From the sequence record OM632671.1: 64,000 bases of DNA. One strand, given 5' to 3'. A model generated the notes under the pieces. The model did no database searches, was not told the DNA's origin, and saw only the letters and a list, made by a program, of their open reading frames with translations. Both the position numbers and the translations under genes were made by a program. The DNA comes from Escherichia phage BEU50. Numbering within the stretch: the stretch's first letter is position 1; the number at the start of each line of letters is the position of its first letter. Positions 38,974-41,554 of this stretch are shown here, piece after piece.

Positions 38974-39432
38974 ATGACTATCAATTCGGAAGTTTTTATC
39001 CGCCGTAATAAACTCCGTCGAATCTTTGAAACGGAGTTCCGCAAAATAAATGCCAGTATAAAAGACGCTGCAAAGTCTCTTGGACTACCAGGCTTTCATA
39101 TCAAGTATTCTCAACATCTCTTAGATCGTGCTATCCAGAGAGAAATAGATGAGAATTACGTTTTTGAATTATTTCGTAAAGTAAAAAATCATGTTAAAGA
39201 AGTTGCAGAATTTTTATCAATGCCGGCACGTCCAGATGTTGATGAAGATTTTGTCGAAGGTGTCGAATATCGCCCGGGCCGTTTAGAAATAACTGATGGA
39301 AATCTTTGGTTGGGACTTACAGTTTGTCGCGAAAATCCGGCATTCAAAATGAAGACTCTTCAATGCAGAATGGCTATTATTAACAGTAAACGACTACCAG
39401 GAAAAGCTTCTAAAGCAGTGATTAAAATCTAG
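38974..39432 (+). CDS. regB: endoribonuclease RegB
   Basis: MTINSEVFIRRNKLRR...HIKYSQHLLDRAIQREIDENYVFELF...QCRMAIINSKRLPGKASKAVIK matches recalled T4 RegB. Confidence 0.88.
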   Translation: MTINSEVFIRRNKLRRIFETEFRKINASIKDAAKSLGLPGFHIKYSQHLLDRAIQREIDENYVFELFRKVKNHVKEVAEFLSMPARPDVDEDFVEGVEYRPGRLEITDGNLWLGLTVCRENPAFKMKTLQCRMAIINSKRLPGKASKAVIKI

Positions 39433-39440
39433 AGGTAAAC

Positions 39441-39983
39441 ATGAGAAAAGCACTACTCGCTGGTCTATTTGCTCTTTCATTATCAGCACATAGCTCCGAG
39501 CATACTTTTAGTAATGTCCAACTCGATAACTTGAATTATGCTTATCAGTTTGGGGAACAGTTTTCTAAGGACGGAAAATTTAAAACGCATGAAAATATGC
39601 ATAAGAAAGGACTTGGATACATAATGGCCGCAATACTATGGCAGGAATCATCTGCCGGTATTAATCTTAAAGATAAGAAAGGTCACCATGCGTATGGAAT
39701 GTTCCAAAATTATCTACCAACAATGAGGGCAAGAATTAACCAGCTTGGTTATAATATGACTGATGCCCAAATTAAGAAAATGCTATCTAAGCGGTCTAAT
39801 TCAACCAGATGGGCTTATATCGAATTTTCTTATTGGTTAAATATACATAACGGGGATATAAGAAAAGCTATATCCTCATATAATGCGGGATGGAAGACAA
39901 GCGCTGGAAGTAAATATGCTTCTGAAGTCCTAGAAAAGGCTAATTACCTTAAATCAAATAAACTACTGGAAATAAAAGAATGA
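39441..39983 (+). CDS. predicted periplasmic lytic-transglycosylase-like protein
   Basis: N-terminal signal peptide MRKALLAGLFALSLSAHS; SLT-like motifs WQESSAG, GMFQ, SYNAGW. Confidence 0.6.
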   Translation: MRKALLAGLFALSLSAHSSEHTFSNVQLDNLNYAYQFGEQFSKDGKFKTHENMHKKGLGYIMAAILWQESSAGINLKDKKGHHAYGMFQNYLPTMRARINQLGYNMTDAQIKKMLSKRSNSTRWAYIEFSYWLNIHNGDIRKAISSYNAGWKTSAGSKYASEVLEKANYLKSNKLLEIKE

Positions 39984-40327
39984 CCAAAATGTTGGCTTTA
40001 ATAGTTGGCTTGGTTTCATTTAACGCTCTTGCTAATACTACATATACTGATGTAACGGAGTATACAAACAGAACGGCGTCTGATTATTGTGGTAAAAGTC
40101 AAGAGTGTAAAGTAGATTTTTCACAAAAATTGTTATATGCGTATAAAGACGGAGAAAAAGATGGGGCGTCTAGTAGGTTCAAGGCGTCTACCTTAATTAA
40201 AAGATACTATAAAAAATGGCAAATATTAGAATGCTCTGTGGCGGAACCTAAAGATAAGGCAGCATGCAATTCTATGGTGGACCGTCTAGTTGACTCTTAT
40301 ACTAGAGGACTTGCAGCAAGTGATTAA
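39980..40327 (+). CDS. predicted secreted protein (signal peptide, 4 Cys)
   Basis: MTKMLALIVGLVSFNALA signal-like N-terminus. Confidence 0.55.
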   Translation: MTKMLALIVGLVSFNALANTTYTDVTEYTNRTASDYCGKSQECKVDFSQKLLYAYKDGEKDGASSRFKASTLIKRYYKKWQILECSVAEPKDKAACNSMVDRLVDSYTRGLAASD

Positions 40328-40784
40328 AAACTATATCAAGGGCGATATTGTCGCCCTGTTTTCTAAAGGTAATAATATTGCTCATGGGTGTAATTGTTTT
40401 CATACAATGGGCGCCGGTGTAGCAGGCCAATTAGCAAAGGCTTATCCAAAAATTCTGGAAGCCGATAAACTTCAAACCGAATTCGGAGACAAGTCTAAAC
40501 TCGGGACTTATTCGGTTTATGAAAAATATTTTAAGACCCATAAAGCTTATTGCTTTAATCTTTATACACAGTTTGAGCCGGGACCTAATTTTGAGTACTC
40601 TGCTTTAATGAATTGTATAATAGAATTAAATGAATTCGGAAAGAATAAGATAATAAAGCCTGTAATTTATATGCCTAGAATTGGTGCAGGTATTGGTGGT
40701 GGAAACTGGGATATCATCGAAGAGATTTTAGATACGTATTCCACTAAACTAGAAATTGTGATTGTTGATTGGGAACCTAAATGA
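40320..40784 (+). CDS. macrodomain protein, TARG1/DarG-like (predicted ADP-ribose processing)
   Basis: Motifs YIKGDIVALFSKGNNIAHGCNCFHTMGAGVAGQL and MPRIGAGIGGGNWDIIEEI align with recalled human TARG1/OARD1; start uncertain (GTG 40320 after SD gagga, or TTG 40290). Confidence 0.7.
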   Translation: MIKNYIKGDIVALFSKGNNIAHGCNCFHTMGAGVAGQLAKAYPKILEADKLQTEFGDKSKLGTYSVYEKYFKTHKAYCFNLYTQFEPGPNFEYSALMNCIIELNEFGKNKIIKPVIYMPRIGAGIGGGNWDIIEEILDTYSTKLEIVIVDWEPK

Positions 40785-40963
40785 AATTAACTAAAGAAGA
40801 GAAAGCTAAATTGTTCGAACTTATCCATGACCTATTGGATGAGCAAGCAGCCACCAATGCGTATGATGAATATGCTCCTTTAACAGATGAAGAATATCAA
40901 GCATTGATGGAATCATTTGACAGGAAAGAACAAGAACTCATTGACTACGTGAATTCACTATAA
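40781..40963 (+). CDS. hypothetical acidic protein
   Basis: 60 aa ORF. Confidence 0.5.
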   Translation: MKLTKEEKAKLFELIHDLLDEQAATNAYDEYAPLTDEEYQALMESFDRKEQELIDYVNSL

Positions 40964-40972
40964 GGGGCTCTT

Positions 40973-41554
40973 ATGGCTAGTTTAATTTTTACATATGCCG
41001 CTATGAACGCCGGTAAGTCTGCTTCATTACTTACTGCCGCACATAACTATAAAGAACGTGGCATGGGTGTATTAGTTCTTAAACCGGCTATTGATACTCG
41101 TGATTCAAAAGGTGAAATAGTCTCTCGTATTGGTATTCGTCAGGATGCCAATATAATTACAAAAGACATGGATATCTTTGAATTCTATAAATGGGCTGCA
41201 GCACAAAAGGATATTCACTGTGTATTTGTTGACGAAGCTCAGTTCTTAACTACTGAAAAGGTGTATCAACTTAGTCGTATTGTTGACGTATACAATGTGC
41301 CGGTAATGGCATATGGACTACGAACAGATTTTAAAGGTAATCTATTTGAAGGTTCTCAAGCATTAATGGCTATTGCCGATAAGCTTGTTGAACTTAAAGG
41401 TGTCTGTCATTGTGGTAAAAAGGCCACAATGGTAGCTAGAGTCACGGAAGACGGACTTCCAATTACAGATGGCAGTCAAATTGAAATTGGTGATACTGAT
41501 AGATATGTGTCATTATGCCGGAAGCATTGGAATGATTTGACAGGATTGTTATAA
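40973..41554 (+). CDS. tk: thymidine kinase
   Basis: P-loop AMNAGKS; VDEAQF; C-terminal Zn-binding cysteines; 193 aa as in T4 Tk. Confidence 0.93.
   Translation: MASLIFTYAAMNAGKSASLLTAAHNYKERGMGVLVLKPAIDTRDSKGEIVSRIGIRQDANIITKDMDIFEFYKWAAAQKDIHCVFVDEAQFLTTEKVYQLSRIVDVYNVPVMAYGLRTDFKGNLFEGSQALMAIADKLVELKGVCHCGKKATMVARVTEDGLPITDGSQIEIGDTDRYVSLCRKHWNDLTGLL

What the first reader, a model, noticed from the sequence alone, without database searches (positions are those of the whole stretch)
40290..40784. TARG1/DarG-like macrodomain protein: candidate ADP-ribosylation eraser
The motifs KGDIVALFSKGNNIAHGCNCFHTMGAGVAGQL and MPRIGAGIGGGNWDIIEEI align closely with the TARG1/OARD1 macrodomain family, which includes the DarG antitoxin that removes ADP-ribose from DNA. 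A phage copy could reverse host ADP-ribosylation of phage DNA or proteins (for example DarT-type defence) or tune the phage's own ADP-ribosyltransferases. I do not recall a characterised counterpart in T4.
Basis: partly seen in the sequence, partly recalled or inferred. Interest (0 to 1): 0.7.

Follow-up and report, generated by a model that had tools for sequence, protein, structure and literature searches.

The report
Phage macrodomain AdfM (T4 Tk.4 ortholog)

Summary
Window 40290-40784 (+) is a real macrodomain gene. The true start is most likely GTG 40320, giving 154 aa. Support: Pfam Macro above its cut-off, an AlphaFold model at pLDDT 95, and top structural matches to BT1257, Poa1p, DarG and TARG1.

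The window comes from a Mosigvirus-like T-even phage. The gene lies between vs and tk, as T4 tk.4 does, and is 86% identical to T4 Tk.4 (dN/dS 0.07). Tk.4 has carried an "A1pp phosphatase" label since the 2000s. A 2025 preprint showed that deleting it sensitises T4 to DarTG2 and renamed it AdfM.

The anti-DarT reading is supported by orthology. The enzyme activity itself is still inferred.

One refinement: the protein is not DarG-type. It lacks DarG's C-terminal domain. At the position of the catalytic lysine of DarG and TARG1 it has an invariant glutamine (Q84). Streptomyces SCO6735, a proven thymidine-ADP-ribose DNA hydrolase, has a glutamine there too. PhiKZ "AdfM" keeps the lysine and belongs to a separate, DarG-like lineage.

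Verdict: already known, low interest.

The parts
40320..40784 (+). Coding sequence of the macrodomain protein (ortholog of T4 tk.4 / adfM): GTG start, 154 aa, TGA stop
   Evidence: ORF. T4's ATG aligns with GTG 40320. 86% identity over 153 aa to T4 Tk.4. dN/dS 0.07 against T4.
40290..40319 (+). 5' extension of the maximal ORF from TTG 40290; probably not translated. It lies inside the 3' end of vs.
   Evidence: Homologues align only from residue 11 of the TTG-started ORF. T4's start is at the position of 40320.
40305..40309 (+). Shine-Dalgarno-like GAGGA, 10 nt upstream of GTG 40320
   Evidence: Read from the sequence. GAGGA is conserved in T4.
40383..40397 (+). H22-G-C-N25-C26 motif. N25 aligns with DarG N22 and PhiKZ AdfM N23. 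H22 aligns with SCO6735 H24 and TARG1 H32; the Poa1p H23 equivalence is read by eye from the alignment.
   Evidence: Alignments. N25 is present in 76/76 and H22 in 75/76 family members. The PhiKZ N23A mutant has reduced activity.
40407..40424 (+). First glycine-rich ADP-ribose (phosphate) binding loop, M30-G-A-G-V-A35
   Evidence: Aligns with DarG MGKGVA and TARG1 MGAGIA. G33 and A35 are invariant.
40557..40571 (+). Strand end N80-L-Y-T-Q84. Q84 occupies the position of the catalytic Lys of DarG (K80), TARG1 (K84) and PhiKZ AdfM (K78), and of the essential Gln85 of SCO6735.
   Evidence: L-INS-i alignment and MAFFT alignment. Q84, N80 and Y82 are present in 76/76 family members. The role of SCO6735 Q85 comes from PMC9411070.
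40674..40709 (+). Second glycine-rich loop, P119-R-I-G-A-G-I-G-G-G-N-W130 (distal ribose / diphosphate binding). G126 aligns with TARG1 D125.
   Evidence: Aligns with DarG PPLGAGNGGLPW, SCO6735 LPRIGCGLAGGTW and TARG1 MPRIGCGLDRLQW. P119, I121, G122 and G124 are invariant.

Best explanation
The gene is the ortholog of phage T4 tk.4 (AdfM, anti-DarT factor macrodomain). It encodes a stand-alone, 154-aa 'orphan antitoxin-like' macrodomain made by a T-even (Mosigvirus-like) phage. Proposed mechanism: when the host toxin DarT2 ADP-ribosylates thymidines in single-stranded phage DNA at TNTC-type motifs, the protein binds the ADP-ribose through its two glycine-rich loops. It then hydrolyses the ribose-thymine N-glycosidic bond, releasing ADP-ribose and restoring replicable DNA, so the phage escapes DarTG2. 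The chemistry is probably of the SCO6735 type rather than the DarG/TARG1 type: an invariant Gln84, helped by N25 and H22, positions the distal ribose for attack by an activated water, and no catalytic lysine is involved. What is shown here: the macrodomain fold and class, and the orthology and synteny with T4 tk.4. What is shown in the literature: the tk.4 knockout sensitises T4 to DarTG2; a Gln-type macrodomain (SCO6735) cleaves thymidine-ADP-ribose on DNA and needs that Gln; and a phage macrodomain (PhiKZ gp104) removes DarT2 marks in vitro. What is inferred: that this protein has the same enzymatic activity and phenotype.
For: Macrodomain identity is supported. DarG is the only NCBIfam hit (E=6.8e-8) and the only PADLOC hit (E=1.8e-9), and both matches cover only the macrodomain part of the model. 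The protein is 86% identical to T4 Tk.4 over its full length. The gene order is the same as in T4, vs.1-vs-tk.4-(tk.2)-tk-rI.1-rI. dN/dS is 0.07, and this is the best-conserved protein of its neighbourhood. Q84 aligns with DarG K80, TARG1 K84 and SCO6735 Q85. The SCO6735 Q85A mutant is inactive, while the wild-type enzyme cleaves dT-ADPr and rescues cells from DarT toxicity. The active-site residues N25 and Q84 are invariant, and H22 is present in 75/76 homologues down to 39% identity. PhiKZ AdfM biochemistry provides proof of principle for phage macrodomains.
Confidence: 0.77

Rival explanations
1. It is mainly a Poa1p-like hydrolase of small ADP-ribose derivatives, such as ADP-ribose-1''-phosphate, O-acetyl-ADP-ribose or ADP-ribose-derived immune signals. 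This is what the historical 'phosphatase / A1pp' annotation implies. DNA repair of DarT2 damage would then be secondary or indirect.
Against: The 'phosphatase' label is only the old name of the domain, not an assay result. The one phenotype known for the ortholog is specific to DarTG2, which modifies DNA. The position aligned with Poa1p S30 (T29, equivalence read by eye) is variable in the family, with T in only 49/76 members. No pathway producing Appr1p is known to limit T4 growth (own knowledge).
Confidence: 0.08
2. It erases ADP-ribose from proteins or RNA. The targets would be host ART-based defences, or the marks written by the phage's own Alt/ModA/ModB enzymes, as in the first reader's second suggestion.
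For: TARG1 and SCO6735, members of the same class, also de-ADP-ribosylate protein substrates. T-even phages encode several ARTs (PMC9503650).
Against: T4 ARTs modify arginine (own knowledge). Among macrodomains, arginine-specific activity appears here only for MavL (title of PMC10951314, listed), and I know of none for this class. No phenotype of tk.4 other than DarTG2 sensitivity was reported. Nothing in the window links the gene to an ART.
Confidence: 0.07
3. It neutralises DarT2 without catalysis, by binding the toxin or shielding the modified DNA.
For: Catalytically dead SCO6735 (Q85A), DarG (K80A) and TARG1 (K84A) still inhibited DarT in vitro.
Against: The protein lacks the C-terminal DarT-binding domain of DarG, matching only model positions 4-148 of 338. 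The strict invariance of the pocket residues N25 and Q84 and of the glycine loops across distant phages argues for catalysis.
Confidence: 0.05

Closest known systems
Phage T4 Tk.4 = AdfM (anti-DarT factor Macrodomain; NP_049723)
   Same: 86% identity and 95% similarity over the full length. Same position between vs and tk. Same HGCNC, NLYTQ and PRIGAGIG motifs.
   Different: GTG rather than ATG start. G127 (the family consensus) where T4 has K127. This phage has only a tk.2-like ORF between the gene and tk, where T4 has tk.1, tk.2 and tk.3. The DarTG2 phenotype is known only for T4.
Streptomyces coelicolor SCO6735 (PDB 5E3B) and Bacteroides BT1257 (2FG1/2AFC)
   Different: The loop after the Gln is 5 residues shorter and lacks the lysines K89 and K93. 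K34 corresponds to A32 and V25 to G23. Sequence identity is only about 25-29%. These are cellular proteins, not phage proteins.
DarG antitoxin of DarTG2 (T. aquaticus 5M31/5M3E, M. tuberculosis 5M3I)
   Different: The NCBIfam score is 32 bits against a cut-off of 250. There is no C-terminal DarT-binding domain, no adjacent darT, and Gln replaces catalytic K80.
PhiKZ gp104 'AdfM' (chimallivirus, Cell Rep 2026, PMC13309987)
   Same: A stand-alone phage macrodomain that counters DarTG2, and it carries the same name.
   Different: It is a different lineage. gp104 scores 73-90 bits against the DarG macrodomains but only 8.6 bits against the window protein, and it keeps the FPTK catalytic lysine K78. 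Biochemistry exists for gp104 only.
Human TARG1/OARD1
   Same: Top Foldseek hit (E=1.3e-10). Shares the KGD, AH-C and MPRIG-G motifs. It also removes T-ADPr from DNA.
   Different: The catalytic dyad K84/D125 is replaced by Q84/G126.
Yeast Poa1p (6LFQ-6LFU)
   Different: Poa1p is an ADP-ribose-1''-phosphate phosphatase acting on a small molecule. It has no Gln-ended strand motif.

Membership tests
Macro domain superfamily (Pfam PF01661) | Profile score above the curated gathering threshold | tested here: met
   28.7 bits against a cut-off of 22, E=1.4e-6, covering 116 of 118 model positions.
Macro domain superfamily (Pfam PF01661) | Three-layer alpha/beta/alpha macro fold | tested here: met
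ALC1-like / TARG1-like macrodomain class (TARG1, DarG, Poa1p, SCO6735/BT1257) | Closest structural and sequence neighbours belong to this class, clearly separated from MacroD, viral and PARG classes | tested here: met
T4 Tk.4 / AdfM orthologous group | Full-length high identity to T4 Tk.4 | tested here: met
   131/153 identical, E=2e-104.
T4 Tk.4 / AdfM orthologous group | Conserved genomic position between vs and tk | tested here: met
   The order is regB, vs.1, vs, this gene, a tk.2-like ORF, tk, rI.1, rI.
T4 Tk.4 / AdfM orthologous group | Required for plating on DarTG2-expressing hosts | not testable with these tools
   Shown only for T4.
DarG antitoxin (NCBIfam NF048014 equivalog) | Score above the equivalog cut-off, with a full-length two-domain architecture | tested here: not met
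   32.1 bits against a cut-off of 250, with only model positions 4-148 of 338 matched. Genuine DarGs score 392-466 bits.
DarG antitoxin (NCBIfam NF048014 equivalog) | Catalytic lysine (Taq/Mtb K80) | tested here: not met
   Q84 aligns with K80, and Gln is present in 76/76 family members.
DarG antitoxin (NCBIfam NF048014 equivalog) | Encoded next to a darT (DUF4433) toxin gene | tested here: not met
   The neighbours are vs and a tk.2-like ORF. Two distant homologue contexts also lack DarT.
TARG1/OARD1 | Catalytic dyad Lys84 / Asp125 | tested here: not met
   Q84 and G126 occupy those columns. The TARG1 sequence was verified against the PDB.
SCO6735/BT1257-type Gln macrodomains | Gln at the end of the strand, in place of the catalytic Lys | tested here: met
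   N80-LYT-Q84 aligns with N81-MIG-Q85.
SCO6735/BT1257-type Gln macrodomains | Extended basic mobile loop (K89, K93) and K34 for DNA binding | tested here: not met
   The loop is 5 residues shorter (QFEPGPNFEY) and has no Lys; A32 lies at the K34 position.
SCO6735/BT1257-type Gln macrodomains | Hydrolysis of thymidine-linked ADP-ribose on ssDNA | not testable with these tools
   Needs an enzyme assay.
Poa1p-like ADP-ribose-1''-phosphate phosphatase | His23 and Ser30 equivalents in the active site | tested here: inconclusive
   H22 is conserved in 75/76 members. T29 appears to sit at the S30 position but is variable, with T in 49/76. These equivalences were read by eye from the alignment.

The most novel reading that the evidence does not exclude
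The T-even AdfM (Tk.4 type) would be a lysine-independent, Gln-type thymidine-ADP-ribose DNA hydrolase. It would be related to SCO6735/BT1257 rather than derived from DarG. In that case phages have recruited two unrelated macrodomain lineages against DarT2, the Tk.4 type and the DarG-like PhiKZ gp104 type. Like SCO6735, the Tk.4 type might also act on protein-linked ADP-ribose, giving it a broader anti-defence range than DarTG2 alone.
Probability: 0.5. Interest if true: 0.4.

Novelty: already known. Interest (0 to 1): 0.2.

Why it matters
It explains why this T-even-like phage should be resistant to DarTG2, and it adds one more ortholog to a counter-defence factor that is already described. 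Three modest points go beyond the literature I could read. First, the T4-type AdfM has an invariant glutamine where DarG, TARG1 and PhiKZ AdfM have the catalytic lysine, so its chemistry is probably SCO6735-like and remains untested. Second, the name 'AdfM' currently covers two distinct macrodomain lineages. Third, the closest GenBank relatives annotate a truncated protein that lacks the N-terminal active-site motif, because the start codon is GTG.

Tried and rejected
1. TTG 40290 as the start codon was rejected. T4's ATG and the homologue alignments point to GTG 40320.

2. Default MAFFT and phmmer place the BT1257/SCO6735 Gln six residues upstream, opposite C78. I rejected this register. L-INS-i with SCO6735 included aligns Gln with Gln and introduces a 5-residue loop insertion. 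That matches the published structure-based alignment and the reported 'five residues longer' loop.

3. 'Catalytic residue absent, therefore inactive' was rejected, because SCO6735 is active with Gln at that position.

4. Net charge or pI as a test for DNA binding is not informative. The window protein has pI 6.8. PhiKZ gp104, which is proven active on DNA, has pI 5.1, and the Mtb DarG macrodomain has pI 6.7.

5. I looked for a DarT gene next to distant homologues (P0114, P0117). None was found, and both contexts look phage-like. This is too small a sample to settle the origin of the family.

6. I looked for the other anti-DarT gene, adfN. It is T4 gene 30.3, which by T4 map position lies outside this window, so I did not pursue it.

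7. The model coordinates are not exposed to scripts, so I could not measure the active-site geometry or superpose ADP-ribose.

Full report

Window 40290..40784 (+) is an open reading frame of 164 codons counted from its first TTG.

It is a macrodomain beyond reasonable doubt:
- Pfam Macro (PF01661) matches over 116 of 118 model positions, at 28.7 bits against a gathering cut-off of 22.
- PHROG 335 matches at E=2.9e-66.
- A sequence search of the PDB finds only macrodomains of one class: BT1257, Poa1p, SCO6735, TARG1 and DarG.
- An AlphaFold2 model built on 76 homologues has mean pLDDT 95.4 and pTM 0.91.
- Foldseek puts TARG1 (E=1.3e-10), Poa1p and DarG at the top.

The start coordinate needs a correction:
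- Homologues align only from residue 11 of the TTG-started ORF.
- The ATG of T4 tk.4 aligns exactly with GTG 40320.
- That GTG lies 10 nt downstream of a conserved GAGGA at 40305-40309.
- The CDS is therefore most likely 40320..40784, 154 aa, overlapping the stop codon of the upstream gene vs by 8 nt. This arrangement suggests translational coupling.

**2. What is it, and where does it sit?**

The window comes from a T-even phage. The region is 98-99% identical to Mosigvirus genomes such as Escherichia phages NRG-P0074 and 348Ecol098PP.

The neighbourhood matches T4:
- The genes in order are regB (38974..39432), vs.1 (39441..39983), vs (39980..40327), the macrodomain gene, a 60-aa tk.2-like ORF (40781..40963, DUF7438), tk (40973..41554), rI.1 and rI.
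- This is the T4 order, in which the gene between vs and tk.3/tk.2/tk.1/tk is tk.4.
- The window protein is 86% identical and 95% similar to T4 Tk.4 over its whole length.
- It is the best-conserved protein of this neighbourhood: tk is 81% identical, vs.1 83%, vs 67% and tk.2 48%.
- dN/dS against T4 is 0.07 at dS of about 1.2, which indicates strong purifying selection.

Relatives are common. tblastn finds matches in 2,790 of 50,697 phage records. They are spread across T4-like phages of Escherichia, Klebsiella, Salmonella, Acinetobacter, Aeromonas and Vibrio, and also occur in phages with quite different genome sizes.

**3. What is known about the ortholog?**

- T4 tk.4 has been annotated 'phosphatase; contains A1pp phosphatase motif' in the reference genome. 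The domain match was reported in 2006 (PMC1524935).
- In November 2025 the HIDEN-SEQ preprint (10.1101/2025.11.20.689424) reported that tk.4 was the single significant transposon-sequencing hit on a DarTG2-expressing host. A clean knockout sensitised T4 to DarTG2. The authors renamed the gene adfM, for anti-DarT factor Macrodomain. They state that enzymatic removal of ADP-ribose from DNA 'seems likely'; it was not assayed.
- Earlier work had shown that T4 lacking adfA and adfN remained DarTG2-resistant, and predicted a further factor (PMC11825919).

Its statement that T4 has no counterpart is wrong.

**4. How does it most likely work?**

I fetched two genuine DarTG operons from plasmids, one from Meiothermus and one from Mycobacterium. 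Their DarG proteins score 466 and 392 bits on the NCBIfam DarG equivalog. I also recovered the sequences of Taq and Mtb DarG, SCO6735, BT1257, TARG1 and PhiKZ gp104.

What matches DarG:
- The window protein matches only the macrodomain part of the DarG models, positions 4-148 of 338, at 32 bits against a cut-off of 250. It is therefore an 'orphan' macrodomain without DarG's toxin-binding C-terminal domain.
- It shares both glycine-rich ADP-ribose-binding loops: MGAGVA, and PRIGAGIGGGNW against DarG's PPLGAGNGGLPW.
- It shares the conserved asparagine. N25 corresponds to DarG N22 and to PhiKZ N23, whose N23A mutant is impaired.

What differs from DarG and TARG1:
- The position of the catalytic lysine (DarG K80, TARG1 K84, PhiKZ K78) is occupied by Gln84.
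- The column aligned with TARG1 D125 is occupied by G126.
- Q84 is present in 76 of 76 homologues down to 39% identity, as are N25, N80 and Y82.

The glutamine does not imply inactivity:
- Streptomyces SCO6735 also has Gln (Q85) at this position and is a member of the same class.
- It efficiently cleaves thymidine-linked ADP-ribose from ssDNA and rescues cells from DarT.
- It is inactivated by Q85A.
- A water-mediated mechanism without an acid-base residue was proposed for it (PMC9411070).

With L-INS-i, the window's N80-L-Y-T-Q84 aligns with SCO6735's N81-M-I-G-Q85. The only difference is a 5-residue insertion in the SCO6735/BT1257 loop, which agrees with the published structure-based alignment.

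My best explanation (confidence about 0.77) is that this protein removes DarT2-installed ADP-ribose from thymidines in phage ssDNA using SCO6735-like, lysine-independent chemistry. The fold, the orthology and the residue equivalences are shown here. The T4 phenotype and the SCO6735 and PhiKZ biochemistry come from the literature. The activity of this protein is inferred.

Caveats:
- The residues SCO6735 uses to hold DNA (K34, K89, K93) are not conserved here. A32 lies at the K34 position, and the loop QFEPGPNFEY is short and contains no lysine.
- Overall charge does not discriminate between DNA-active and other macrodomains.

**5. Rival explanations**

- (a) A Poa1p-like small-molecule ADP-ribose-1''-phosphatase or deacetylase. 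The 'phosphatase' labels are inherited from the domain's old name. Poa1p is nevertheless a near-top structural match, and the H-x-C-N-C motif is Poa1p-like. Confidence as the main function: about 0.08.
- (b) Removal of ADP-ribose from proteins or RNA, including marks made by the phage's own ARTs. There is no supporting evidence. T4 ARTs target arginine (own knowledge), and I know of no member of this class that cleaves arginine-ADP-ribose. Confidence about 0.07.
- (c) Non-catalytic inhibition of DarT. This is possible, because catalytically dead SCO6735, DarG and TARG1 all inhibit DarT in vitro. The invariant pocket argues for catalysis. Confidence about 0.05.

**6. Comparison with what is known**

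- The protein is a member of the Macro superfamily, of the ALC1-like/TARG1-like class, and of the T4 Tk.4/AdfM orthologous group.
- It is not a DarG equivalog and not a TARG1 ortholog, because defining features were tested and not met. The membership table lists them.
- Among solved structures it is nearest to BT1257/SCO6735. phmmer gives 44 and 27 bits for those two, against about 21 bits for DarG and TARG1.
- The chimallivirus 'AdfM' (PhiKZ gp104, Cell Rep 2026, PMC13309987) is biochemically shown to remove DarT2 marks. It is a different, truly DarG-like lineage. It scores 73-90 bits against the DarG macrodomains but only 8.6 bits against the window protein, and it retains the FPTK lysine.
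- One name therefore covers two macrodomain lineages, which suggests independent recruitment by phages. I did not find this point in the papers I read. It rests on sequence comparison only.

**7. Novelty and score**

The finding is correct but already known, both as an annotation (macro domain / A1pp) and as a function (AdfM).

The residual interest is modest. It lies in the Gln-type active site, the two-lineage observation, and the fact that no enzymology exists yet for the T-even protein. Interest: 0.2.

Noticed in passing
window 40339-40357 (+), with a U-rich tail to about 40367: A terminator-like hairpin lies about 20 nt inside the macrodomain CDS: AGGGCGAU-AUU-GUCGCCCU followed by GUUUUCUAAA. 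Its free energy is -13 kcal/mol, with z=-3.0 against shuffles. The 26 nt around it are identical in T4 even though dS is about 1.2 across the gene. It could be an attenuator or terminator for vs transcripts, an mRNA-stability element, or simply a by-product of the conserved KGDIVALF codons.
   Followed up: partly
L005 3008-3385 (348Ecol098PP) and L006 12707-13084 (NRG-P0074), equivalent to window 40407-40784: The two closest GenBank relatives annotate the macrodomain gene from an internal ATG, giving 125 aa. This cuts off the first strand and the H-G-C-N-C active-site motif. The likely cause is that the real start is GTG. Other relatives call it 'hypothetical protein'.
   Followed up: yes
window 40781-40963 (+): Only one small ORF lies between the macrodomain gene and tk: 60 aa, Pfam DUF7438, 48% identical to T4 Tk.2. 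T4 has three ORFs there (tk.3, tk.2, tk.1), so tk.1 and tk.3 are absent from this phage.
   Followed up: yes
window 39441-39983 (+): The vs.1 ortholog (83% identical to T4 Vs.1) has an N-terminal signal-like hydrophobic segment and a weak, sub-threshold match to the SLT lytic transglycosylase domain (E=7.8e-4, 19.4 bits against a cut-off of 21.3). A distant macrodomain homologue (L007) also sits two genes upstream of an SLT-domain gene.
   Followed up: no
window residue G127 of the macrodomain (codon 40698-40700): T4 Tk.4 has Lys at this position of the second glycine-rich loop (GIGKGNW). The window protein and 69 of 76 family members have Gly. T4, the only genetically tested member, is therefore the atypical one at this loop position.
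   Followed up: partly
L003 1848-3541 (Meiothermus taiwanensis plasmid pMtWR-220): A complete DarT-DarG operon (DarT 249 bits, DarG 466 bits on the NCBIfam equivalogs) is embedded among defence-type genes. Upstream are a DUF262 gene and a restriction endonuclease S subunit. Downstream are an AAA ATPase and a DUF4276 gene, a pair I recognise (own knowledge) as Gabija- or OLD-like. The plasmid annotation calls the DarT and DarG genes only 'DUF4433' and 'macro domain-containing protein'.
   Followed up: no
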